From Trypanosoma brucei (lineage: Eukaryota): a stretch of DNA of 64,000 nt. Below, one piece after another: positions 41,904 through 60,407 of the stretch (the stretch's first letter is position 1; each line of letters begins with the position of its first letter). The notes beneath the pieces are model-generated. The model was not told the DNA's origin and did no database searches. It was given only the letters and a program-made list of their open reading frames with translations. Where the stretch lies: NCBI GenBank assembly GCA_000002445.1, contig CP000070.1:192001-256000 (forward strand). The letters are read 5' to 3'. The translations under genes and the position numbers were made by a program.

Positions 41904-43739
41904 TTGAAGACGGTGTTCTGTCGGTCCAGAGCCCTATCGGCTGGCGTCTGCCCCTGAAAATGCGAGGTAAGAGAGTGAGCGGCGCCGCGTTGGATGGGTA
42001 GGAGGGTCGCACCATGGAATTGATGTGTGTGATGGCCTTCCTGCCTTAGCCGATTCCAGTGGAGGTTCTCGGAGGTGATGAGTTTTTACTTTCGAACTGA
42101 CTACATGCCGCAGCATGGGCGTTCATCGACCGCTGGACTCTAGCAGCCGTGGGGCGTGCTGATTTCGGGAGGAGCAACAAGTGCCGAAGCCTCCCCGAAA
42201 CATCCTCAGTTCGGGTCGGACACGGCAGCTGCTCCCCGTTCCGGTTGAGGCGTTGCTGCGCTTTCGAATCGTCGGCGGTTAAGGGATTCTAGTCCCACGT
42301 GAAAGAGACCACTTGTCAATACGATCGCCGCCGGTTTCGGCTAACCATTCTGATTGTGCTTTGCAGTGCGTCACTTGCCACGCTACTGCTTCAGAGCGTG
42401 GCTGCTCCGGAAGGGTTTTTGGCGAGCCCCCTGGCGGTTGTTTTCACGCTGGCGTTAATCGGACATGATCCCCCGTTTGTTGTCTGATAACGGAGGTAGC
42501 GAAAGAGCATGTGGCGTCGTCACATGGGAATAAGGGGAGCGGCGCCAGGCATTTTGCTGTGCAAACCCCTCTTTGTTATACAGTTTGCTGTCTCCTTTCC
42601 CATTGGGGTGCTGATGAAGTGCCGAAGAATGATCTTGTGAGGTAGGGGCGACTTTACTAGTCGGGGGAGGCGTCTGCTCTATTACTCTGGAGGTGTAACG
42701 CGTAAGTTAGGTGGATGTTGGAGCGTATGCTGGTAGTATTTCAATGTGGTGCAAAATTTTTTGTTTTCCTCCAGCGAAGTTATAAGTGCTCCATGAGCGT
42801 GCGGGTTCTGGGGATGTAGGAATCTGTGTGAACGGATCGTGTTTGGATGGGAGTCGCACATTTTCTCTTCGAGAGAGTGTTGGGAGGTTTGCTCCTTTTA
42901 ATTCCCTTTGTCTGAACAGCAGGAGTTTTCTGATTCTTTGTGGCTGGCCTCTTTTGCTCATCAAGTGTTATTATTATTTTTTAAATTTCATCGCCTACGG
43001 TACGTGGACGGGGAGCTGTGCTGATATCACCGCGCTTCCGTGTTTCGCTTCGTACTTGTTTATTGTTTTGCCGTCTTATCACTCTACGAACCGTACCTCG
43101 TGGATGGTGAGCAGTCTTGTTAGCTGCTTCGTTGCCCGAGGTAAAAGGTACGCGCTGCTTTTGGGTCGAGGAAGTCCCTGCGTTAGGGTGATTCACTCAC
43201 GCTGTGTTGGTCGTGAAGATGCGCTTCCGCTGCATTTCTTGGGGCACACGTGTCTGGAAAAGAAATTCCCCCGACTCACTTGATCGTTTGGGCTCCGCTG
43301 TGGTATGTCGCAACACATAACCACGATTTATCCTTCATAAAATATCTTCGTGTCAAGGAATTGAACTCGAAAACACTAAAGGAGGTGCGGAAAATGCTAA
43401 TATACAGTGCTGTTCCGCTTCGTTTGCTCACGTGCTCGCGTGAAGCGGGCCCATATTGCATGCGTGCCAAAACATGGGTTAAGTTGTCGTGTGTTTCGTC
43501 CTTTCCTCTTATCTTGTGCCCTGTCCCACGCTGTGCGACCTTACATTGTGACTGTTGGTTGGATAAATTGGGTATCGTGATTAAAGGAGTGTACCACTCC
43601 TTTCGTAGGTTTACATATGGGCTACTCTTCGCTTTGATGCTGCCCTTTTTCGCTCTTACTGGGCGGTGATTCCCGTGCACTTAGCACCGAAACAATCGTA
43701 TTTCAACATTTGAGAACTAACTCATAAATATAGCTTTTT

Positions 43740-43920
43740 TGTCCAAGATCGGTCCTTTATTTTTTAATGTTATACAAACTGTTGATTTATTTAAAATATG
43801 AACGGTCATCCCAGTTATCAGAGCTTTTATGCTTGTGCTCGTTGTTAAATTCAGCTCCACCTTTGTTCCAGTCGCTGAAAGGGTATTTCACTCTTCTTAT
43901 TTTCCTCTTTTGGTTAGTAG
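43740..43920 (+). promoter_or_regulatory. polypyrimidine-rich tract upstream of the CCCH gene start (probable trans-splice acceptor / 5' UTR region)
   Basis: T/C-rich plus-strand sequence ending in AG dinucleotides just before the ATG at 43926. Confidence 0.4.
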
Positions 43921-49210: not shown

Positions 49211-49676
49211 GTTGTACTATGGTGTTTTGTTTCTAAATTTCTACTCCAATAACGCACTTTTTGCGAAGCTCAGCGAACCCTAGTCGAAACATAAAATCAT
49301 TTTTATTCACCCCATCGAGTTGGCAAGTGCGTTTGCTGCGGTGAGTCGCCATACTTCAACTGCTAAGTTAACACCGAGAGGGAAGAGAGCTAGAGGAGCA
49401 GCATCAGCGCAATTTCACGGATTTAGTGTTGTTAGACACAACCCCTTTTTTGTGTTGCACCCGGCCGTTGCGTGAACGACGCGACGAAAACTCATACAAC
49501 ACAAAACCCTTACCGCAAACAGCAGGCAAATCGGCTGGGGAATAGAAAAAAGGTGTTGTAGCACCTTGTATATATATAATTTGTAGCACGAAAAGTATAA
49601 CGGATCCCTTCAAATAGTGGTGTACCCAAGTACTCCCTTTTCAGGTAGACAATAGTGCATATTTGGTTGTGCATCA

Positions 49677-52268
49677 TTGTTTGCTTGTGCGGTAGAGGGG
49701 CGTGCGCTAAAGGACGGCATGACCAGAAATGCTGATGCACACTTTTCTGTTGGGACGGCTGCGAATCGGCAATTGAACGTGCCTGCGCCAAGTCATTTAG
49801 TGACGTGGAGTGCTGACAGCCTTGCACAGAACCAGCCGTCGATCCCCTCACTGGGGAACCTGAACCTTCGCAACCCCGGCATCTGGTCCAAGCGTGAGGA
49901 ATTGACCCCGAGGCGCCAGTCTCCGGTTGTTGCTGCTCGCATGGCCAGGATAGTGAGTAGCAGTAATATATCACCACGCTACACCACCTTTACGCAACGC
50001 TGGTCTCCCGTGTCGCCTCTGGATCTTTCACTCACACAGAGCTCACACCGTGCACAGACAGCGGGCGAGCGGGGGTTCGCATTTATTGCGCGTTATGGAG
50101 GTATTGCGAGGTCTCCGGCGCGCCAGGCGGCCTCTCGTTCGGGTCAGTCACCCGAACTGGAAACAAGTGTTGCAAGCCGCCAAACTTCTCAACACTCCTC
50201 GCTTCCAGTGGAGATGACACCGCGTGACCGATCTTTGAAGCGTCAAATTATAACTGAGCGGAAACTTCGCATCGTTCGACAGGAAAGTAGCACGCCTGGG
50301 GCAAGCAGTTCTAATTTGGCATGTTTGAGTGAGGCTAATGGGTCCAGAACGAGGCTTTTGTCTCAGGAACAGCTTAAAAAGCAGGGGAGCTCGATTCATC
50401 ATGGAGGGGAAACCGGTTTAACCGATAAATCTCCTGTTGCCGCACCGCTCACGGTGGAGCAACTCCTGAGGAAACCTCCTCAGAAGGCCAGTACGTCCGT
50501 GGGACGGCGCGTGCAGACTCCAGAGATTAGCATCTCATTGCGTGGATCGTTTTCTGCAGGAAACGACTCGTTGAGTAGCGCACATGTGGCAGAACTGAGC
50601 ACCACTACCGCTCGCGAGTTGCCTTCCGGTGGCGTTCCATGTGTGGCTCCTCATCGGATGTCAGACAAATCGATGTCTGCCTCCATTTCCTCCTGTGTCC
50701 ATCCGGTAATTGTGCAGCGCCGGCGTTGCAGCGACTGTACTACTAAACCTGCTCCGTCCGCAACAACATCACCTGGGACCATGACAGCGACGACCGCAGG
50801 CGCCACTCCCACTACCAGTAGCAACCGTAGCCAAAGCAGTGTGGAGACGGTGACGGACATTCCCAGTGTTGGTCAAGTGGCTGCACCCTACAATGGGCAG
50901 AAGTCTTCTTTTGTCTCCAGTCGGCTAGTTATGCAGCAGTTTGTACAGCGTTGGAGCAACCATTACGAAGAGAACAAAAAGGCCTATTTCGAGGGAGGAT
51001 ACATGTCAGTCGTACCGGGGAAGAAGCTGAACTCTCGGTATGTAATCGTGCAGAAGCTTGGCTGGGGTGAGTTCAGCACTGTGTGGCTTGCGTACGACAC
51101 TCTGCATACAACCCTTGGGAAACCACATCAGGCATTCGTTGCGGTGAAGATTGCCAAGTGCGACAGTGTTGTGTCCGAGAGCACCCAGTACGAGATCAAG
51201 CTGCTCCGCTATATTGGATCGAATACGCCATCACATGCTCCACTCACAGGTCTGTTGGATTCATTTGAAGTGGCTGGTCAGTATGGTTCGCACACGTGCA
51301 TGGTTATGCCCCTACATGGTTCAAATCTTTTGAGTATTATTGACCAGATGAAGGCCAAGAAGGGTATCCGGAGCCCCTCCGAGATATCCCTGATTAAGGA
51401 GATCGTTGTTTCAATCCTTATTGGCCTTGATGAACTCGATAAGCTAGATGTCATTCACACGGACATCAAACCCGAAAATATCCTTTGCTCATCGTCCGAC
51501 CCCAAGGTGCTTGATACAATTGAGAATTTCTGCCTCCGGAACAAGGATCGCTCGAGCATGGTGCCGGCTGACCGCGTGCGGAAGGCTATGTGGCAGGGGG
51601 ACCCAAATCACTTGGTTTGTATTGCTGATTTCGGTCTATCTGTTGCGCTTAAGCCGTCCAAGGGCCAGGCTGTGACCGGAAAGGGACAAAAGGATGTTGC
51701 TGCGAAGGCCGCTATTGAGAGTAAAAAGGAATTCCCCGTTGAAAAGGCTGGTACTGTGTCAAACGTACGCGGTACGATGATTCAAACGCGTGAGTACCGC
51801 GCCCCTGAGATCCTTATGGGGATGGATTTCAACACCCGCACCGATATTTGGAGTGTTGGTTGCATGGTGTATGAGCTAATTACGGGAGAGTTCCTCATGG
51901 ACCCGAAGCGTCGTACAAGGAATGAACGCATGATGGACGTGGAGCACCTTGCCATGATGATGCAAATACTTGGTCCTGTTCCTGAGAAGATAATCAAGCT
52001 TCGAGAGGGATGTGGTAACGGCAAACCCCCTCCTCGCTACATCCATCGCTACTTCGATGAAAACAATCGTTTCATATACAGCGATAAGTACAGACTTTAC
52101 CCGCGTCGTCACATTGACAGGGAGTTGCAGGCATATCTTCCTCCTGCAGAAGCGAAATCGGCAGCGGCCTTTATTGTGGGCTGCCTCGCTTCCTATGAAC
52201 CAACTTCTCGCCCGTCAGCTGGAGAGATGCTTAACCACACGTGGCTGTATGATGCCACCAACAACTGA
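49677..52268 (+). CDS. serine/arginine-rich protein-specific kinase (SRPK)-like CMGC protein kinase with a long S/T/P-rich N-terminal extension
   Basis: Kinase subdomains LGWGEFSTVWLAYD (SRPK-type glycine loop), VAVKIAK, HTDIKPENIL, DFG, REYRAPE and DIWSVGCMVYEL, with spacer inserts typical of SRPKs. The first ~430 aa are low-complexity. Confidence 0.85.
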   Translation: MFACAVEGRALKDGMTRNADAHFSVGTAANRQLNVPAPSHLVTWSADSLAQNQPSIPSLGNLNLRNPGIWSKREELTPRRQSPVVAARMARIVSSSNISPRYTTFTQRWSPVSPLDLSLTQSSHRAQTAGERGFAFIARYGGIARSPARQAASRSGQSPELETSVASRQTSQHSSLPVEMTPRDRSLKRQIITERKLRIVRQESSTPGASSSNLACLSEANGSRTRLLSQEQLKKQGSSIHHGGETGLTDKSPVAAPLTVEQLLRKPPQKASTSVGRRVQTPEISISLRGSFSAGNDSLSSAHVAELSTTTARELPSGGVPCVAPHRMSDKSMSASISSCVHPVIVQRRRCSDCTTKPAPSATTSPGTMTATTAGATPTTSSNRSQSSVETVTDIPSVGQVAAPYNGQKSSFVSSRLVMQQFVQRWSNHYEENKKAYFEGGYMSVVPGKKLNSRYVIVQKLGWGEFSTVWLAYDTLHTTLGKPHQAFVAVKIAKCDSVVSESTQYEIKLLRYIGSNTPSHAPLTGLLDSFEVAGQYGSHTCMVMPLHGSNLLSIIDQMKAKKGIRSPSEISLIKEIVVSILIGLDELDKLDVIHTDIKPENILCSSSDPKVLDTIENFCLRNKDRSSMVPADRVRKAMWQGDPNHLVCIADFGLSVALKPSKGQAVTGKGQKDVAAKAAIESKKEFPVEKAGTVSNVRGTMIQTREYRAPEILMGMDFNTRTDIWSVGCMVYELITGEFLMDPKRRTRNERMMDVEHLAMMMQILGPVPEKIIKLREGCGNGKPPPRYIHRYFDENNRFIYSDKYRLYPRRHIDRELQAYLPPAEAKSAAAFIVGCLASYEPTSRPSAGEMLNHTWLYDATNN

Positions 52269-54016
52269 GGTGAAAGTACTGGTTCCCTGAGAGCGATAGC
52301 AATACAATCACCCTTCTTCACAATTCCGCTGTGATCTATATTATTTGTTTGATGTATTGGTCATTTCGGCGGTCTTGAGGCTAGTATGGAAAAGGAAGCA
52401 CGGAGATACAGGTGTCTTGGTCGTTGCAACTGGTTTAGTGCACAGAGGAGGATGGAAAGATATAATTAAAGGGTGACCGCTGGCGGTTGCGAGTTGGTCG
52501 AGAAGAGTTACGACCTGATGAAAGTGACGATTTGGGAACGGTAGGAGTGAAGAGGAGGGCCGCCCACAAGGCCGTTATTTCCACTATGTAATAATTTTAA
52601 AATGGTGGGGAAAATAAGGCAAGAAGGAAAAAAAAAATAAGAATAAGAAAGGCACGTACAGTTGAAGATTTTGATTTGTTGCCCTAACTCGTTCCCGCTT
52701 GTTAGTGTAAACCTTCCCCTTCGCGCTAGACTAAAGGGTTAAAACCCTGAGGTGAAGGACTGAAGGCTCTCCTTGTATATGTATTGGTATACTAATTTGA
52801 GTTGTCAGCACATATACTTATATACTTGAATATATGCGCATGCACGTGTGCGTGTATGTGTGTGGGTTTACACGACTGCTAGGTGGGCGCGATGGAGATA
52901 TACTTATGTTATCATGTGTGCTGTGGATGTTCGTGTTTTCAAATACACGTTGATTTGTTTGTGTTTGTGCTTGCGTTTTTTTTATGCCCTTAAATTTCAT
53001 CTCTTCCGTTTTAATATGTGCGTTTGATATGAGTTAGTTGCTGTTCACGCAGGGGAGTACAGGGCTACAAAAGGCTCACTGATGAAGGTAGAGTGACCTT
53101 CCCTGTTCTTTTCGGGAAAACGTGTGAGAGAAATGCAAAGGAAGAAGAGAAAATGATAATGATTGTAATAACAAATTGGTGAGATAGAATAAAAAATTTA
53201 AGTGAAAATGAAGGAGTGTGGTGGATACAGTACGTTTGTGTTTGTGTGTAGTGGAGTTGTTTTGGAGTCGGTGTGCTGAAAGGAATGAGAGGTGGAAGCA
53301 ATAAAAGTGAGAGAAAAGTATGTTATACGGAGCGGAGAAGAGAGAGAAAGAAGGGGGGAGGGACGGGGGAATTCACTGAGGGGGCGCGTGTGATGCTGCA
53401 TCATTTCCAAAAAAGGGTTAAATGGTTCCGTGTATCAGCTTGGTTTCCCCTGAGGAGAAGCTGTGTTGTACTCCACAAAGTGGGTAGAACTATCACTATG
53501 CATTTTCAGATGGCTTTTAACACACACACGCATAGTTCTTTGAATGGGTTCGGCTGTTCATAACACGGTTGTGCAAATACTTGTTTATCCTTGCGCATGC
53601 ATACTCTGTTTCTATGGGTCCTCTTTTGTGCTTCAGTTTGCCTAACAATGCAGTTTACCCTTCTGCGTATTTGGGTGTGCGTGCGTCTTCTCTGGTGCCG
53701 TTACCCTCATTGTTTTCTGTATCGGTTGCACTTCATTTTTTGCATCCGTTCTCCCCTTGTTTTCCTTTCGCTTTTATGCCTTTTTTGTTTTGGGGGACCC
53801 CAGGTGTGCATGACGATGCGTTGTTCTTTTTTTCCCCCCCGTTAGTCATTCATTTCTCCCCGTTTTCGTTGATTTTTTCCCTATCTACAATGCACGTGTA
53901 CATATGTCTGCAGTGTGCGGTATCATGTATGACATGTTAACCAATGACGAGGTAAAGATTTGACGTCTGGGAACCAACACGCATCCCCTCTCACGCTCCC
54001 GTATTCGTCCCCCCTT

Positions 54017-54080
54017 TACTTTCTGTGTTCTTTTTCTTTTCTTTTTTCTTTTCTTTTTTTCTTTTCTGTTTTTTTTTTTA
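54017..54080 (+). repeat. long T/C tract with (TTTTC)/(TTCTT)-like pentamer periodicity
   Basis: ttctttttcttttcttttttcttttctttttttcttttctgttttttttttta. Confidence 0.85.
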
Positions 54081-55208
54081 CTAATAGTTTATCTAACTTC
54101 ACTTTCTGCCACGACCACTCCCCGTCTCTTCCCGCTTGTCACTGCAGGGGAGAGTCGAGGGGGTGTTGCGACGCTCGTTTGGGACGAAGCGATTATTCAC
54201 GTAATGTGCCTCTCCTCCCTTTTGTCACAACTGATCCCGTCGGCAAGAGTGGCTTTTTTTTAAAAAAAATTCCCCTTCTTTTTTTTTCCCATTCATTACT
54301 TCTTTTCCCTCATATTCTGTGTTTTTCTTCCCCCTTTCTTCGGTAACACAGTTTATATTGTTTTGTAAGGCACCAGGCGTAACGTACGTGCCGTTTAATA
54401 TGAGAAGATATATAGTAACAATAATAATGATGGTTTTCTGTTTCTTCTTTTTTTCATTTGTGAGCCGGAAAAAAAAACCTACTATCCCACCTGCAATTTT
54501 TTCCCCTTTATATTTATTAATATTGTTAGTATTCTTCTGACTACCATTATTATTATTATTATTACTATCACTATCACTATTGATTTTATTGTTATTGTTA
54601 TTCTTGTCATTTGGATCATTTTGTCCCCTCCACCGCATATGCTTTTTTTTTTTATTGGATGTGTTGAGTGGAGGGCTGCGAAACTAATGATATGGCCTCT
54701 CATTTGACAAGTGATTTCATTCGTAGTGGAAAGAAGCGAACGAATAGACGCAACAAATTGAAAACGGGTAGGCGAAGGAAAGGATGTATTTTTTTTTTTA
54801 AAAAAAAAAATGGAGTTTTCTCGCCTTGTGAGAGTATATAGGATCAGAAAGAGAGAAAGAGAGGGCAAAAAAAAAAAAGAAAGAAAAGGTGGAAGAAGAA
54901 GGAGGCGTTACATCACGGAAAGGAAGTTAACATTGTTTTGCGCCATCCGTTTCAAAGCTTTACGTACCCGCATGTACATAATCGTAAATAGTCCGCGGAT
55001 AGCGGATGCGCGGACTTGCAGTTAGTAAGGGTTTGGGAGAAGAAGATGTTTAATGGGGTGTAAAGTTTTTGATGTATGTGTGTGTGGTTATTAATATGAG
55101 TATATGGTGAGAAGAATATGGAAAGGAAAAAGGGGTGTAACGGAGTTTGGGTTCGGTGGCTGTAATTGGCTTTGGGCGCCGTTACTCCTCATAGTTTGAA
55201 AGCATCCA

Positions 55209-55246
55209 TTTTCTTTTCTTTTCTTTTTTTTCTTTTTTTTTTTTTT
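55209..55246 (+). repeat. T/C tract ending in T14
   Basis: ttttcttttcttttcttttttttctttttttttttttt. Confidence 0.85.
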
Positions 55247-58200
55247 AAACAGTCTCTTCGGATTCTTGTTTGCCATGTATATGAGTTTTTATTCACTCCC
55301 CACCCACTACCTTTTTCCCTCCGCAACGTCCCCTGCAAACCTGTTTTTTTTCCCCTTAATCCTTCTATCTTACCTGTTGTTCCTTTTTTTTTTTGGTTCT
55401 GTTGGTTAACTTCCGGGTTATCCACCAGCATCACTTGCTCTCATCCTGTAATTATAGTTTTTCAGGGACAGCACCTCGCAATGTATCGAAAGAACAAAAA
55501 TGGCATGAACGATGGGTTTGTACTTTCAGTGTGGGGAAAGGGTGTGGGTGGGAGGAGTGTAGAAGGATTTATGAACTTGGGTCTTCTTTATAAATAAATA
55601 ATATATATATATATACAAATTTGAGCGGTGCCAGCAGTGATTTTTTTTTTTCTTTGGTGGTGAGGAGGGAGGATTTCGTACGCAGCGTCGCGTGTTGCCT
55701 CCTCCGTTTTGTTTCACCTTTTGAACTTGTTGTGCTGTTAGGTGACAGTGAGAGGAAACTTTTTATGTATGTAAAAGGAGGCTGTGCAAACCTGAAGATA
55801 TGTATGGTGAGTTAGGGATACATCAGAAGGAAAGTGAAAAATCAAGTAAAGAGGTAAATGAGTGCATGTGCGGGTCGATGGAAGGGAGGTGAAAAAAAAA
55901 AAAGGAGAGATAAACATACGTATGAGTGTACCACTGCTTCAAGAGGTGTGATTTCTCAACACAGAGGAAATTTACTTTCCTCCACCTCTTTTTTATTTTA
56001 TTTTGTTGTTCCCCAAAGAATTAGTGCAGGGTATCGCCCAGTTTTTGTTGCCTGTTTCACTGCTGCTTCCTCTCTTTTTTTTTTTTCTTTACTTCATTCG
56101 TTGTGTCGGTCTTAGCCTGCTTTCGTTCGTGCCTCGGTTAGAATCACTGGCTATAACTGTGTCTCCATTGTGAATGTTTTTTGTCTTCCCCCGCTTTATC
56201 CCTTTGTTTGAATCAAAGCTGCTTTCTTCTTCCCCTCATCATCCTTTCACCATCTTTTTTTTTCCCCCTTCTTCTTCTTCCGTTGAATGATTGCACGACC
56301 CCCTTTTACCTTTTTCGTGTATAGATAATTTCCACAACAACTTTACATAACCCCGCGCATAGCATCGGTTATAGCCTATTACAGGCTTTTTCAAGTGATG
56401 TAAGTTCTGCGAGAGGTGTGTGGGTTAAACAAGGTGTAAAATGTGGTTTCTTTAAACACCCAAATTGAGGTGCTGGAGTCCCCCACATCACCACTTTACC
56501 CACCGCTACTGTTTTTTTTTTTGCCTTTTGTTTTGTTTTGTTCAGGGATAAGGCATCATATGCAACGATTGAGAAGCAGTCAAGCTTGCTTATGGTCGGG
56601 GAGGACATTTTGTGTTACCTCTTGCATTTTTTCCCCCTCCCCCTCCCGTGACGTTACATGGTTGAAGGTGAGAGAAGCTGAAAACAACGGACGTGTTGTA
56701 AAGTGAAGTGAAGCGAAGTGGAGTGGAGTGCTGCGTGTATGACTGTGGGATAGTGAGCTGAAGTTGGGGTTGCACTTCAGTACTGCAGCGTGTTTCTCGG
56801 TTTCTCTTTCTATTTCTGTGTGTGTGTGATTGCATTTGTGTTTATACGTGTATGTGTGTAAACGAAAAAAGGTTACCTGGTAGGAGTTAAGGTGTGCGGT
56901 GAGGGGCTTCTCAACATTTTCGGTTTGACTGCTTCCCTTCAGTGGAGCGTAATATCGCCCTTCTATTATCCGCATCTTCCTCTTCAGTATTCTTGAAAGC
57001 CGTGTTGAGCGACATGTGCTGATGGGACACACGGATTTCAAAAAAAAAAAGAAGGGAATGGAGCGTGTATGTATGCATGAAAGTGTGAATGACGGAGGAT
57101 GCGTATCTTACCTGACTTTACTTGATAGCGGTAAGGGAGAGCAGTGGGAGAGCGAAATGAAGGAAAAATGTGGTTAAGTGCACGGAGCAAAAAAAAAAAA
57201 AAAAGAAGGGATATAAAGTCCGTCATTGTAGTGGTGAAGGTGGAAAGAGGTAATTACGGAAAGAAAAAGGAAAGGTGAGCAATGCTGTCGGAAGGGTGTC
57301 ACAAGCTGAAAGAAGGAAATCTATGACGTAATGCGGCTGTTGTGTTTTCAAATACAGAGTTGTGGTAGGTATTCATAGATCCCTTCCCTCCCTCTTTACA
57401 TATATAAATATATATTTTACGACGTGGTGTTCACTGCCTCCAGTTCCTCATTTTTTTTTCTTGTGTTGCTCGCTTTGCTTTTTTCCCCCTGTGGTTACAC
57501 GGTGTTGTTTTTCCATTCGTCCTGATTCCAACCTCTTCCCTCTCACGGTGCTTCGGCGTCGTTTTGATTTGATGCTTGTGGTTCATTGGTTTCCTTGCAG
57601 TTTTTTGCCATCTGGTTAGTTGGTTGGCTCCTTCCTCCTTGTTGATGAACTGTCCACTTGTTTCGCAGTGCGAGTTGGTGAAACGGCGTGTGCTGTTCTG
57701 AAAAGTGTGTGGTCCCGTCGCTGCACTGCCATCTCACTTATCAGTTTGTTGCGCAGACTATCGTCGGCTAATGCTCTTTTTTTTTTTTCCACCATTCCCT
57801 GTCGTTGCTTACCTTTTGTAATCTTTCAAAGTCGTGTGATTCATCCCTACCTTAATTCTGTTATTTACATAACGAATTTTGTGTTCATTTTCAGCGTTGG
57901 TACCATCATTCTCATTCCTTCAACTTCTCATGGTCCAACAGGTGTGCAGAATGTGTGTATCGGGAAGCGGATTTAGCGGTGTGAGAGAGAGAGGGCGTGT
58001 GACCACATTAAAGGGGTGACGGCATTGATGCAAAGCAAACGAGAAGAAAGAGGATGAAAGGCAAAAAAAAGAAAAAAGAAATAATAGTTGAAAAGGTGAG
58101 GTGGGTACATATCACTCGTCCCACTTACAGTCGCTAAAAAGGGGGAAAAGAAGCAGAAGAAATTGAATTCAATTTAGCATCCCGAGTTCTTGGGTGCGTT

Positions 58201-58549
58201 GTTGATGTGGTTGGAGGGGGGAAAGTGGAGGACAGAGCTTCGGTTATATTGTATACGTTTGTATATATACATATATTTATGCATATGCACACCTGTGCTT
58301 GTGGGAGATTGTACGTCAAATAAGACTTACATGGACGGAAGGAAAAAAAAAAGAAGAAAAGAAGTTAGCAAGAAAAGGGGAACAGGTGATTGAGATTGTC
58401 CGCCTTTTATATTTTCTTCAGGACCTCTACTCCGCAGGAGTGATCTTTCCCCATACCATTATTCTTCACGTCGCACCACACTTATTGAAAATTTGGGTTA
58501 CTGGCAATAGCTTTTCGTGATCACAGTAGATTATTTTGTCTTATGCGAT

Positions 58550-58640
58550 TAAGAGAACAACCGCATCTGTACTTTACGCTTTACTCCTTCTACCTCACTT
58601 GATTTATGTCTGAATTTTTTGTTCCCCCAGTAGCAACACC
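58550..58640 (+). promoter_or_regulatory. polypyrimidine tract upstream of NMD3
   Basis: ctttacgctttactccttctacctcacttgatttatgtctgaattttttgttccccc. Confidence 0.4.
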
Positions 58641-58708
58641 GATATAAGGGGGGCCTCTGCATTGAGAGCTAAATCGTAAGGACTAAGGGTTACTGTGCGG
58701 CTGATCGC

Positions 58709-58740
58709 GCACACGCGCACATACACACACACACACACTG

Positions 58741-58774
<34 letters not shown>

Positions 58775-58775
58775 T
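58709..58775. repeat. compound (CA)n-(TA)n microsatellite abutting the NMD3 start codon
   Basis: gcacacgcgcacatacacacacacacacactgacacacacacatatatatatatatatatatat. Confidence 0.9.
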
Positions 58776-58778
58776 ACA

Positions 58779-60407
58779 ATGGATCTCGATGACGAGTTCA
58801 TTACAAACCGCAGTGAGGCCACCATTCCAAAGGTCCTCTGCTGCGTGTGTGGGCTCCTCATTGACAGTAACCCGAGCAACATGTGTAGCAGCTGCCTACG
58901 CTCTCACGTTGATATCACAGAGTCTGTGCAAAAAGAATATATAATTGTGTATTGTCCCGAGTGCAGCCGCTATTTGCAACCCCCACAATACTGGACTCGA
59001 GCGGATCTAGAAAGCCGTGAGCTCCTTACCATCTGCCTCAAGCGTGTGAAAGGTCTCAGTCGAAACGTTTTCAAACTTGTTGACGCCAAATTTATATGGA
59101 CGGAACCACATTCCAAGCGCCTGAAAGTAAAATTGGTGCTTCAGAAGGAGGTGATGAGCAATATCGTGATTCAGCAAGCGTGCGTTATTGAGTATGTTGT
59201 CGTGTGGCAACAGTGTCCAACCTGTCAGAAGGTGGCTACCGGGCAGCCTCAGTGGGACGCTTGCGTTCAGCTGCGGCAGAAAGTTGCGCATAAGAAGACG
59301 TTTCTTTATCTTGAACAACTCATTCTGAAGCACAAGTTACAGGAAAATTTCATTCGAGTCGAGGCACAGCCCGATGGATTGGACTTCTTTTTTGCACACA
59401 AAAGTCACGCCTTGAACTTTTTGGAGTTTGTCAGTCGCAATAGTCCTGTCACGCGCCGCGATGCCGTACAGCTAGTCTCACACGATAGCAAGAACAATAC
59501 CGCGGTTCAGCATCATACCTTTTCTCTCGAAATTGCTCCCTTGTGCCGTGAGGATCTTGTACTGCTACCTTACCAAAGTTACTACCTGAAGCTTGGCGGA
59601 CTTGGACCTCTCGTGCTTGTCCACAAGGTTTACAGCAGTGTTGTCCTTGTCGATCCTCGGACGCTGCGGGCCAATGAGTTCACAGGGACGTATTATTGGA
59701 AGAAGCCCTTTCTTCCTCTCATGAACTCTCGCGAAATGACGGAATTTTACGTGCTACAGTGTACACCAACTGGTGTAACGAATGGTCGCTATCACTTAGG
59801 TGTTATTACCGTCTGTCTTTCCAGTGAAGTCGGCTACGGACGCGAATGGATCGTCACATCCCACTTGGGTGGGCTTCTGCAGCCGGGTGACCTTGCAATG
59901 GGTTACTTACTGGAAGGCAGAACCTTCAACCATGAGGAATGGGAAAACAACAAGTATAAGCAAGACCAGTTGCAAGAGGTGGTGCTTGTGAGGAAGCACT
60001 TTCCGGCGCAACGCGCTCGTCGCCACAGGCGGAACTGGAAGTTAAAGCGGTTGGATGTTATGGATCCTTCTTGTGCTGAACGCAACGCAAGGCGGCAGGA
60101 AGAACAGGAGGAGGAGCGGCTTGAGTTTGAGGACGAACTGGAGCGAGATGTGGAACTTCGCCGTGATGTACCCATCTATAAGATGCTTGATAGTGAATTA
60201 GCTGAGCGGGTGGTAAAGAAAAATGAAGGAAAAGGAAATGCCAACCCTGAGAATGAGTGTGATGACGACGCGGACGAGGCGCCGCAGATAGCATTGGAGG
60301 AGATGTTGGACGAACTTAGGCTTAGTGACGATGATGAGACCGCTGCTGCCGACGATGAAGAGGCATCCGTCGAAAACGCCAGAAAAAAGAAACGGCCTGA
60401 GGTGTAA
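58779..60407 (+). CDS. NMD3: NMD3 (60S ribosomal subunit nuclear export adaptor)
   Basis: N-terminal 4-Cys clusters CCVCG...MCSSCLR...CPECSRYLQPPQYW, with the rest collinear with NMD3, and an acidic C-terminal tail. The ORF-finder start at 58695 would read through a (CA)n(TA)n microsatellite (THTHTDTHTYIYIYI), so the Met at 58779 (MDLDDEF) is used. Confidence 0.9.
   Translation: MDLDDEFITNRSEATIPKVLCCVCGLLIDSNPSNMCSSCLRSHVDITESVQKEYIIVYCPECSRYLQPPQYWTRADLESRELLTICLKRVKGLSRNVFKLVDAKFIWTEPHSKRLKVKLVLQKEVMSNIVIQQACVIEYVVVWQQCPTCQKVATGQPQWDACVQLRQKVAHKKTFLYLEQLILKHKLQENFIRVEAQPDGLDFFFAHKSHALNFLEFVSRNSPVTRRDAVQLVSHDSKNNTAVQHHTFSLEIAPLCREDLVLLPYQSYYLKLGGLGPLVLVHKVYSSVVLVDPRTLRANEFTGTYYWKKPFLPLMNSREMTEFYVLQCTPTGVTNGRYHLGVITVCLSSEVGYGREWIVTSHLGGLLQPGDLAMGYLLEGRTFNHEEWENNKYKQDQLQEVVLVRKHFPAQRARRHRRNWKLKRLDVMDPSCAERNARRQEEQEEERLEFEDELERDVELRRDVPIYKMLDSELAERVVKKNEGKGNANPENECDDDADEAPQIALEEMLDELRLSDDDETAAADDEEASVENARKKKRPEV

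What the first reader, a model, noticed from the sequence alone, without database searches (positions are those of the whole stretch)
52269..58778. About 6.5-kb ORF-free interval with alternating purine-rich and pyrimidine-rich blocks between the kinase and NMD3
Intergenic distances elsewhere in the window are about 0.3-1.5 kb, but this one is about 6.5 kb with no credible ORF on either strand. The plus strand alternates between G/A-rich blocks (about 53.04-53.42, 54.69-55.15, 55.50-55.95, 56.65-57.35 and 57.95-58.40 kb) and T/C-rich blocks (about 53.56-54.66, 55.19-55.45, 55.96-56.34, 57.36-57.90 and 58.54-58.64 kb). In kinetoplastids each polypyrimidine block is a potential trans-splice acceptor and polyadenylation guide. 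The region could therefore encode a very long regulated 3' UTR of the kinase, multiple alternative 5' UTRs of NMD3, or several independently processed non-coding RNAs.
Basis: seen in the sequence. Interest (0 to 1): 0.5.

Follow-up and report, generated by a model that had tools for sequence, protein, structure and literature searches.

The report
Long low-complexity 3' UTR after SRPK1
The 6.5-kb gene-free stretch is real, but it is best read as the long, purine-tract and pyrimidine-tract-rich untranslated region downstream of a Trypanosoma brucei SR-protein kinase gene, which is a recently described and fairly common kind of regulatory 3' UTR rather than a new element.

Summary
The window is T. 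brucei TREU927 chromosome 7, from about 192,001 to 256,000. The interval lies between Tb927.7.960 (CMGC/SRPK1 kinase) and Tb927.7.970 (NMD3).

- The interval is 6,510 nt with no credible ORF, no Rfam hit and no assembly gap.
- Purine/pyrimidine blockiness is far above shuffles (z = 52) and above every other part of the window.
- It holds 23 of 52 pyrimidine tracts, 17 of 43 purine tracts and 16 of 27 long homopolymer runs of the window.

- Published mRNA lengths are 5,598 nt for the kinase and 1,978 nt for NMD3. They assign about 2.6-2.85 kb of the interval to the kinase 3' UTR and only about 150 nt to the NMD3 5' UTR.
- The distal 3.3 kb has the same tract densities. It is either an extended 3' UTR isoform or a source of trans-spliced by-product RNAs. 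I could not resolve this without read-level data.

Other findings:
- The gap is the longest in its neighbourhood in seven other trypanosomatids (3.3-5.0 kb).
- It is R/Y-blocky in all the Trypanosoma species, yet not alignable outside close relatives.

Overall the finding is ordinary and of modest interest.

The parts
49719..52268 (+). CDS of Tb927.7.960, a CMGC/SRPK-family protein kinase (849 aa plus stop)
   Evidence: Pfam Pkinase domain, split. The best PDB matches are all SR-protein kinases (Sky1p, SRPK1/2) at E about 1e-46, against about 1e-23 for CLK. It is 99.5% identical to the DAL972 orthologue. Gene identity comes from the literature and from the coordinate offset.
52269..55120 (+). 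Proximal part of the interval, the inferred 3' UTR of the SRPK1 mRNA. The end is somewhere between about 54866 and about 55120.
   Evidence: The published mRNA length is 5,598 nt, and 5,598 - 2,550 leaves 3,048 nt of UTRs. Candidate splice acceptors at 49267-49268 (450-nt 5' UTR) or about 49521-49526 (about 195 nt) place the 3' end at 54866 or about 55121. This step is inferred.
54867..54878 (+). Genome-encoded A12 run at the 3' end predicted from the published mRNA length. It is either a true poly(A) site or an oligo(dT) internal-priming artefact.
   Evidence: Homopolymer list. Six further A runs of 10 or more nt lie at 52628, 54800, 55892, 57040, 57189 and 58343.
53984..54079 (+). Strongest polypyrimidine tract of the window (96 nt, score 60), inside the inferred 3' UTR. 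It is presumably unused or masked.
   Evidence: The best PPT upstream of any of 16 genes in the window scores at most 26.
55209..55246 (+). Uninterrupted U-rich polypyrimidine tract (38 nt, 89% T) with AG at 55251. It is the most likely internal processing signal and would set the end of the 5.6-kb kinase mRNA.
   Evidence: The spacing rule (poly(A) site 80-140 nt upstream of the PPT, AG 10-40 nt downstream) comes.
55251..58550 (+). Distal 3.3 kb. It is either the extension of the kinase 3' UTR in longer isoforms or the template of trans-spliced, polyadenylated non-coding RNA(s).
   Evidence: Its purine-tract and pyrimidine-tract densities (6.7 and 7.0 per kb) are the same as in the proximal part (6.7 and 7.8), and higher than in other intergenic regions (3.2 and 4.1). 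It carries strong PPTs at 56222-56281 (score 44), 56066-56095 and 57774-57817. No transcript is called here in Kolev 2010 or Kruse 2023.
53049..53438 (+). Purine-rich block 1 (67% R). The other R blocks are 52379-52698, 54689-55138, 55469-55978 (two blocks with a gap between them), 56649-56768, 56989-57358 and 57929-58428.
   Evidence: Individual polypurine tracts are listed.
53569..54668 (+). Pyrimidine-rich block 1 (four sub-blocks, 29-33% R). The other Y blocks are 52909-53048, 55139-55478, 55969-56358, 56439-56548, 57359-57938 and 58389-58628.
54788..54811 (.). Perfect 24-nt palindrome A T11 A11 T. A second palindrome, T8A8, lies at 54254-54269, and (AT)n palindromic runs lie at 55601-55615 and 58751-58774.
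   Evidence: Palindromic tracts are one of the three defining components of 'P5-UTRs'.
58579..58630 (+). Weak polypyrimidine tract followed by the first AG (58629-58630). This is the inferred NMD3 trans-splice acceptor and gives a 148-nt 5' UTR.
   Evidence: Sequence. PPT score 10. Consistent with the 1,978-nt NMD3 mRNA.
58779..60407 (+). CDS of Tb927.7.970, NMD3 (542 aa)
   Evidence: Pfam NMD3, NMD3_OB and NMD_SH3. The alignment to T. b. gambiense NMD3 shows 100% identity by BLASTP and 99.8% by tblastn. Literature.

Best explanation
The interval is non-coding transcribed spacer inside one RNA polymerase II polycistronic unit. Almost all of it is 3' UTR-type sequence of the upstream SRPK1 kinase gene (Tb927.7.960). 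Only the last 150 nt or so is the NMD3 5' UTR.

It belongs to the known class of long T. brucei 3' UTRs densely packed with A/G-rich poly-purine tracts, U/C-rich poly-pyrimidine tracts and palindromes. This class is typical of kinase and RNA-binding-protein genes.

Likely mechanism, taken from that class and not shown for this gene:
- Purine tracts promote translation or stability.
- Pyrimidine tracts counteract them by base-pairing or by protein binding.
- Because pyrimidine tracts are also the trans-splicing/polyadenylation signal, the many internal tracts must be masked (DRBD18 or PTB-type proteins), or they give shorter mRNA isoforms plus trans-spliced downstream fragments.

A 5.6-kb isoform ending just upstream of the strong U-tract at 55209-55246 is the one supported by published data. 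Whether a roughly 9-kb isoform spanning the whole interval also exists is not known.
For: Shown here:
- No ORF, no conserved CDS and no Rfam or snoRNA signal.
- A single + strand transcription unit, Tb927.7.930 to .1930, with no internal start.
- Kinase mRNA 5,598 nt and NMD3 mRNA 1,978 nt.
- 29 pyrimidine tracts at or above the median strength of genuine upstream tracts, four of them stronger than any genuine one.
- Purine-tract and pyrimidine-tract densities about twice those of other intergenic DNA and equal in the proximal and distal halves.
- Palindromes T11A11, T8A8 and (AT)n.
- The kinase is an SRPK.
- The kinase-NMD3 gap is the longest in its neighbourhood in T. vivax (about 3.6 kb), T. 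melophagium (3.5), T. theileri (5.0, with a 720-N gap), T. cruzi (3.95), T. rangeli (3.35) and L. donovani (3.26), with no extra gene.
- R/Y alternation recurs in every Trypanosoma species (3-7 switches).
- Divergence between subspecies equals that of other intergenic DNA (1.09% against 0.93-1.01%; CDS 0.43-0.73%).

From the literature:
- Long (>2 kb) 3' UTRs dense in both tract types are over-represented for 'protein kinase activity'.
- P5-UTRs are described in the 2026 preprint.
- DRBD18 masks internal PPTs in long 3' UTRs.
- ZC3H28 binds long 3' UTRs with polypurine and poly(AU) tracts, and kinase mRNAs are enriched among its targets.
Against: - No read-level RNA data could be consulted, so the 3' end of the kinase mRNA is inferred from one published length value.
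- Under one plausible splice-site assumption that end falls exactly at a genome-encoded A12 run. This raises the possibility of an internal-priming artefact in the underlying annotation.
- The distal 3.3 kb is not assigned to any transcript by the data I could read.
- Tract densities were measured with my own simple definitions, not with the FIMO motifs used to define the published class.
- There is no evidence that this particular mRNA is temperature-dependent, AGO1-dependent, DRBD18-dependent or ZC3H28-dependent.
Confidence: 0.7

Rival explanations
1. Split use. Only the proximal 2.6-2.85 kb is the kinase 3' UTR. The distal 3.3 kb (about 55251-58550) is released as one or several independent spliced-leader-capped, polyadenylated long non-coding RNAs of the kind catalogued by Guegan et al. 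2022. This is not exclusive of the main explanation, because both sets of products can coexist.
For: - Polyadenylation in trypanosomes is dictated by trans-splicing at the next used PPT. A kinase mRNA ending near 55 kb therefore implies an SL-capped RNA starting near AG 55251.
- Strong PPT + AG units followed by purine-rich, A-rich stretches recur at about 55.2, 56.0-56.3 and 57.4-57.8 kb.
- 1,428 mostly intergenic lncRNAs with ordinary processing motifs exist in T. brucei.
- DRBD18 depletion yields exactly such downstream 3' UTR-derived RNAs.
Against: - Kolev 2010 called 1,000+ novel transcripts in procyclic forms, but none on chr7 between 57,350 and 264,480.
- Kruse & Goringer 2023 report no novel lncRNA between 34 kb and 479 kb.
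- The distal half is compositionally indistinguishable from the proximal UTR.
- The 5.6-kb end may be an A12 internal-priming artefact.
Confidence: 0.3
2. The interval provides long alternative 5' UTRs for NMD3 through use of distant upstream splice acceptors.
For: Many PPT + AG combinations exist upstream. NMD3's own proximal PPT is weak, with a score of 10.
Against: The NMD3 mRNA length of 1,978 nt leaves only 349 nt for both UTRs. The 148-nt 5' UTR solution also places the 3' end 96 nt upstream of the next PPT, as the spacing rule predicts. Long 5' UTRs full of upstream ATGs would be poorly translated.
Confidence: 0.05
3. The interval is the relic of lost genes or of a mobile element, with the surviving pyrimidine blocks being the former intergenic signals.
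For: Five or so PPT-to-purine-block units could look like collapsed gene units. DAL972 annotators called three small ORFs here.
Against: - No gene sits between the two orthologues in any of seven other trypanosomatids.
- No tblastx similarity.
- No long direct or inverted repeats, only low-complexity tracts.
- The DAL972 ORFs are broken in TREU927.
Confidence: 0.03
4. The blocks act at the DNA level, for example as triplex-forming or H-DNA R.Y tracts, a nucleosome-free boundary, a replication origin or an internal transcription start.
For: There are long homopurine.homopyrimidine tracts up to 96 nt, T11A11 and T8A8 junctions, one G4 motif at 55533-55552, and GT-rich stretches.
Against: Kolev 2010, Table S14, places the whole region inside one transcription unit with no internal start. 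The same composition is documented as a property of mature 3' UTRs acting in reporter mRNAs.
Confidence: 0.05

Closest known systems
Long poly-purine/poly-pyrimidine-rich regulatory 3' UTRs of T. brucei, described by Trenaman et al. 2024 (Nat Commun, PMC11405848) and named 'P5-UTRs' in bioRxiv 10.64898/2026.01.20.700697
   Same: - Over 2 kb long.
- High density of both A/G-rich purine tracts and U/C-rich pyrimidine tracts, plus palindromes.
- The host gene is a protein kinase, an over-represented class.
- Complementary A-run and U-run pairs of 25-32 nt are present.
   Different: - Membership of the whole 6.5 kb in a mature mRNA is not shown.
- Temperature or AGO1 dependence and bloodstream-form up-translation were not tested for this gene.
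- The tracts here are organised in 100-1,100-nt same-sign blocks (9 switches). I did not find this arrangement described explicitly in those papers.
RBP10 3' UTR (7.3-8.5 kb) and other DRBD18-dependent long 3' UTRs (Bishola Tshitenge et al. 2022, PMC9380746)
   Same: A multi-kb 3' UTR of a regulatory gene that contains many internal polypyrimidine tracts able to act as cryptic trans-splicing/polyadenylation signals. It has the potential to yield shortened mRNAs plus trans-spliced downstream fragments.
   Different: No experimental evidence here for DRBD18 binding or for isoform switching. Tb927.7.960 is not mentioned in that paper's main text.
Intergenic lncRNAs of T. brucei, such as grumpy (Guegan et al. 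2022, PMC9200285)
   Same: ORF-free, lower GC than coding sequence, and flanked by ordinary PPT/AG and A-rich polyadenylation contexts.
   Different: No mapped SL or poly(A) ends. No embedded snoRNA. Not among the Kolev or Kruse novel transcripts.

Membership tests
Long pPuT/pPyT/palindrome-rich 3' UTR (P5-UTR class) | The sequence is part of a mature mRNA 3' UTR | tested here: inconclusive
   The published mRNA length of 5,598 nt implies about 2.6-2.85 kb of 3' UTR. The distal 3.3 kb is unassigned, and an A12 run lies at the predicted end.
Long pPuT/pPyT/palindrome-rich 3' UTR (P5-UTR class) | Length over 2 kb | tested here: met
   At least 2.6 kb by mRNA length, and up to 6.3 kb if the whole interval is used.
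Long pPuT/pPyT/palindrome-rich 3' UTR (P5-UTR class) | [quoted passage not shown] | tested here: met
   6.45 R-runs and 7.07 Y-runs of 9 nt or more per kb, against 3.18 and 4.14 in other intergenic DNA and 1.65 and 1.49 in CDS. This is my own metric, not the published FIMO threshold of more than 20 motifs per kb.
Long pPuT/pPyT/palindrome-rich 3' UTR (P5-UTR class) | Palindromic tracts | tested here: met
   A T11 A11 T at 54788-54811, T8A8 at 54254-54269, AAATTGAATTCAATTT at 58160-58175, and (AT)n runs.
Long pPuT/pPyT/palindrome-rich 3' UTR (P5-UTR class) | Temperature-responsive, AGO1-dependent abundance, or bloodstream-form up-translation | not testable with these tools
The only expression facts found are 2.44-fold higher mRNA in stumpy than in slender forms and a half-life of 28 min in bloodstream forms.
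Independent SL-capped polyadenylated lncRNA | Mapped spliced-leader acceptor and poly(A) site bounding an ORF-free transcript | not testable with these tools
   No read data. Guegan 2022 tables are not held.
Independent SL-capped polyadenylated lncRNA | Listed in published novel-transcript catalogues | tested here: not met
   No Tb7.NT transcript between chr7 57,350 and 264,480 (Kolev Table S7). No novel lncRNA between 34 kb and 479 kb (Kruse & Goringer). The interval is chr7 244,269-250,778 by the offset inferred.
snoRNA or other curated structured RNA | Match to an Rfam covariance model, or C/D box architecture | tested here: not met
   The best Rfam hits are miRNA models at 17-28 bits against gathering scores of 41-90. 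No RUGAUGA...CUGA pair was found, and the one relaxed pair has no terminal stem.
Protein-coding gene | Conserved open reading frame | tested here: not met
Pol II transcription-unit boundary | Mapped internal transcription start or termination | tested here: not met
   Kolev 2010, Table S14: one unit from Tb927.7.930 to Tb927.7.1930. Chromatin marks were not examined.

The most novel reading that the evidence does not exclude
Selection may maintain the architecture of this interval rather than its sequence: multi-kb length and alternating purine and pyrimidine blocks downstream of the SR-protein kinase gene. That would explain why it persists across Trypanosoma species whose intervals are no longer alignable.

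One specific version is an autoregulatory loop:
- SR-domain splicing factors, which are the substrates of SRPK1, bind the purine-rich blocks that follow each polypyrimidine tract.
- They thereby switch internal trans-splicing/polyadenylation sites on or off.
- This sets the length and output of the SRPK1 mRNA itself.

Tethered trypanosome SR proteins do shift processing to sites upstream of where they bind. Purine-rich binding by these proteins and any effect on this gene are untested.
Probability: 0.08. Interest if true: 0.6.

Novelty: new member of a known kind. Interest (0 to 1): 0.25.

Why it matters
The locus is a clean, syntenic example of a long UTR rich in purine and pyrimidine tracts. 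Its length and blockiness are kept across the genus while its sequence is not. It could therefore serve to test whether such UTRs work through composition and architecture ('zipper' pairing, masking of cryptic processing sites) rather than through discrete motifs.

SRPK1 is needed for fitness in mice and for resistance to complement, so its post-transcriptional control has some biological relevance.

The analysis also flags two practical annotation issues:
- Genome-encoded A runs can create false poly(A) sites.
- Three spurious ORFs are annotated here in DAL972.

Beyond that, the finding is an ordinary instance of a described phenomenon.

Tried and rejected
- **Exact-protein look-ups.** Look-ups of the window's NMD3 and kinase found nothing, so TREU927 is not in that collection. 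I used the DAL972 and other-species orthologues instead.
- **Transcript ends from Logan assemblies.** I queried a spurious 153-aa ORF in the interval. The single contig returned (ERR7929161, window 56496-58368) ends at homopolymer runs, carries no spliced leader and no non-templated poly(A) tail, and is uninformative.
- **Supplement searches.**
  - Siegel 2010, the DRBD18 paper, the ZC3H28 paper and Guegan 2022 hold no text supplements.
  - Nilsson 2010 does not list the two genes.
  - The Kolev splice-site and poly(A)-site tables were truncated before chr7.
- **Sequence conservation.** blastn of the interval against the orthologous intervals gave nothing colinear outside T. brucei. Only T. 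melophagium and T. theileri align with each other.
- **Specific R-block/Y-block pairing.**
  - The RNA duplex calculation timed out.
  - An ungapped complementarity score exceeded within-block shuffles (14 of 56 pairs with z > 3), but only through A-run/T-run matches. That is generic low-complexity complementarity, not evidence of evolved helices.
- **Regulatory motifs.** The RBP10 motif UA(U)6 occurs once per strand and AUUUA is not strand-biased.
- **An apparent second long gap.** The stretch at 1258-9317 proved to be a large gene running off the window edge.

Full report
**Identity of the locus**

- The ORF at 58779-60407 carries the NMD3, NMD3_OB and NMD_SH3 domains. Its alignment to T. 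brucei gambiense DAL972 NMD3 shows 100% identity by BLASTP and 99.8% by tblastn.
- The ORF at 49719-52268 is a split-domain protein kinase. Its best solved relatives are all SR-protein kinases, at E about 1e-46 against about 1e-23 for CLKs.
- The literature identifies them as Tb927.7.970 (NMD3) and Tb927.7.960 (CMGC/SRPK1).
- Poly(A) sites published for Tb927.7.930 (237,598) and Tb927.7.940 (239,289) fit the window if window coordinate x equals chr7 x + 192,000. The interval is therefore chr7 244,269-250,778 of strain TREU927.
- Kolev et al. place Tb927.7.930 to .1930 in one + strand Pol II unit that starts at the divergent strand-switch at window 41904-43766. No internal start is listed.

**Check of the observation**

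- The gap is 6,510 nt.
- The longest ATG ORF is 137 aa and low-complexity. The longest stop-to-stop frame is 175 aa.
- Other gaps are 213-2,291 nt. An apparent 8-kb gap at the left of the window is in fact a minus-strand frame of more than 2,175 aa that runs off the window edge.
- The variance of purine content is 12-fold above dinucleotide shuffles (z = 52).
- In a scan of the whole window, the 12 most blocky 2-kb positions all lie in or overlap the interval.
- The interval is 10% of the window. It holds 23 of 52 pyrimidine tracts, 17 of 43 purine tracts and 16 of 27 homopolymer runs of 10 nt or more.
- Repeat finders report only these low-complexity tracts and no dispersed or transposon-like repeats.
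- There are no Ns.
- The interval is colinear with DAL972 at 97.8% and with an independent Logan contig at 98.4%. A misjoin is therefore excluded.

**What it is not**

- Rfam gives only sub-threshold miRNA-model noise.
- There is no C/D-box candidate.
- tblastx against five orthologous intervals finds no conserved small CDS.
- The three small hypothetical ORFs annotated in DAL972 are interrupted by a stop or by frameshifts in this strain.
- No internal transcription boundary is reported.

**Assignment to transcripts**

- Antwi et al. 2016, Table S1 (column 'Filtered mRNA length'), gives 5,598 nt for Tb927.7.960 and 1,978 nt for Tb927.7.970.
- For NMD3 this leaves 349 nt of UTR.
  - The weak PPT at 58579-58596 followed by the first AG at 58629-58630 gives a 148-nt 5' UTR.
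  - The remaining 201-nt 3' UTR ends 96 nt upstream of the next gene's PPT. This matches the published spacing rule.
  - NMD3 therefore uses only the last 150 nt or so of the interval.
- For the kinase, 3,048 nt of UTR remain.
  - With the acceptor after its strongest upstream PPT (AG 49267-49268, 450-nt 5' UTR), the 3' end falls at 54866, immediately before a genome-encoded A12 run (54867-54878).
  - With a more proximal acceptor (about 49521-49526), the end falls at about 55121, about 90 nt upstream of the 38-nt U-rich tract at 55209-55246.
  - Either way, about 2.6-2.85 kb is kinase 3' UTR.
  - The first solution warns that the annotated end may reflect oligo(dT) priming on the A12 run.
  - These assignments are inferences from one published number plus sequence rules.

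**The distal 3.3 kb (55251-58550)**

- It has the same purine-tract and pyrimidine-tract densities as the proximal part: 6.7 and 7.0 per kb against 6.7 and 7.8. Other intergenic DNA has 3.2 and 4.1, and CDS has 1.65 and 1.49.
- It contains PPTs stronger than any genuine upstream PPT in the window. Interval scores reach 60, 44, 38 and 30, against a genuine maximum of 26. In all, 29 interval tracts reach the genuine median of 13.
- Because polyadenylation is coupled to downstream trans-splicing, there are two possibilities:
  - the internal tracts are masked and a roughly 9-kb mRNA exists; or
  - processing at about 55.2 kb releases at least one SL-capped non-coding RNA.
- Kolev 2010 and Kruse & Goringer 2023 list no separate transcript here. 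This mildly favours the first possibility. The Guegan lncRNA table could not be read.

**Comparative evidence**

| Species | Kinase-NMD3 gap | Note |
|---|---|---|
| T. b. gambiense | 6.47 kb | |
| T. vivax | about 3.56 kb | |
| T. melophagium | 3.54 kb | |
| T. theileri | 5.03 kb | includes 720 N |
| T. cruzi | 3.95 kb | long-read assembly |
| T. rangeli | 3.35 kb | |
| L. donovani | 3.26 kb | |

- This gap is always the longest in the locus, and no gene intervenes.
- R/Y alternation recurs in all the Trypanosoma species (3-7 switches, sd 0.107-0.213). It is absent from L. donovani, where the interval is uniformly pyrimidine-rich.
- Sequence is not alignable except between the sister species T. 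melophagium and T. theileri. Even T. cruzi and T. rangeli do not align.
- Between the two T. brucei subspecies the interval diverges like other intergenic DNA. Substitutions are 1.09%, against 0.93-1.01% for other intergenic regions and 0.43-0.73% for CDS. There are also 25 indel events.
- Length and composition therefore persist while sequence does not.

**Comparison with what is known**

- Trenaman et al. [quoted passage not shown]
  - Long UTRs tend to be rich in both purine and pyrimidine tracts.
  - The cohort with UTRs over 2 kb and a high density of both is over-represented for protein kinases and RNA-binding proteins.
  - They proposed masking of purine tracts by pairing with U-rich tracts.
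- A 2026 preprint names such UTRs 'P5-UTRs' (poly-purine, poly-pyrimidine, palindromic). It reports about 1,000 transcripts whose temperature response depends on AGO1.
- The interval meets the sequence criteria I could test: length, both tract types, palindromes such as A T11 A11 T, and a kinase host gene.
- The DRBD18 work explains how internal PPTs in such UTRs are normally kept silent and what appears when they are not.
- ZC3H28 preferentially binds long 3' UTRs containing polypurine and poly(AU) tracts, with kinase mRNAs enriched.
- The complementary A-run and U-run pairs found here are what the 'zipper' model requires. They are also what any low-complexity sequence of this kind would show.

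**Verdict**

The second, NMD3 5' UTRs, is essentially excluded as the main use. The third, separate ncRNAs, stays open for the distal half.
- The feature is an unremarked member of a known class, so interest is modest.
- The most novel reading left open is architecture-level selection, possibly an SR-protein/SRPK1 feedback on processing-site choice. I rate its probability at about 0.08.

Noticed in passing
window 1259-7783 (-), continuing past the window start: An open frame of more than 2,175 aa on the minus strand runs off the left edge of the window, so the ORF listing does not show it. It makes 1258-9317 look like a second 8-kb gene-free gap, which it is not.
   Followed up: partly
window 41904-43766: Divergent strand-switch region between the minus-strand unit (Tb927.7.920 to .310) and the plus-strand unit (Tb927.7.930 to .1930), according to Kolev 2010, Table S14. 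The studied interval begins only about 8.5 kb downstream of it.
   Followed up: partly
window 58706-58774, with a partner at 56811-56858: The inferred NMD3 5' UTR ends in a (CA)n run followed by (AT)12, which stops 4 nt before the ATG. A (TG)n-rich stretch 1.85 kb upstream is 73% complementary to it over 48 nt. This could pair with the 5' UTR in an unprocessed precursor, or it could simply be microsatellite coincidence.
   Followed up: no
L001 4877-5218, 6515-6835 and 7055-7423 (T. b. gambiense DAL972 chr7): Three annotated hypothetical proteins (113, 106 and 122 aa) lie in the orthologous interval. They have no Pfam hit and are broken by a stop or by frameshifts in TREU927, so they are very probably spurious gene calls.
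   Followed up: yes
window 54788-54811 and 54254-54269: Two T(n)A(n) junction palindromes (T11A11 and T8A8) lie 530 nt apart inside the inferred kinase 3' UTR.
   Followed up: no
L005 7503-10000 (T. cruzi GCA_003719155.1) and L007 4967-10000 (T. theileri): These assemblies carry runs of 1,716 and 720 N inside the orthologous interval, and the T. cruzi kinase gene is split into two calls. The low-complexity tracts evidently break short-read assemblies, so gap lengths from such assemblies are unreliable. The long-read T. cruzi assembly (L009) gives 3.95 kb.
   Followed up: yes
L006, about 6480-6530 (T. vivax, about 300 nt downstream of the kinase stop codon): A genome-encoded A run of roughly 50 nt sits in a purine-rich block at a position similar to the first purine-rich block of T. 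brucei, T. cruzi, T. melophagium and T. theileri. In each of these a purine-rich block falls about 50-720 nt after the stop codon.
   Followed up: partly
L001 14905-16643 (DAL972, between the genes downstream of NMD3): Among the T. brucei intergenic regions compared (five from the window, two from L001), only this one shows intermediate purine/pyrimidine blockiness (sd 0.099 over 1.7 kb). It may be a second, shorter UTR of the same class.
   Followed up: no
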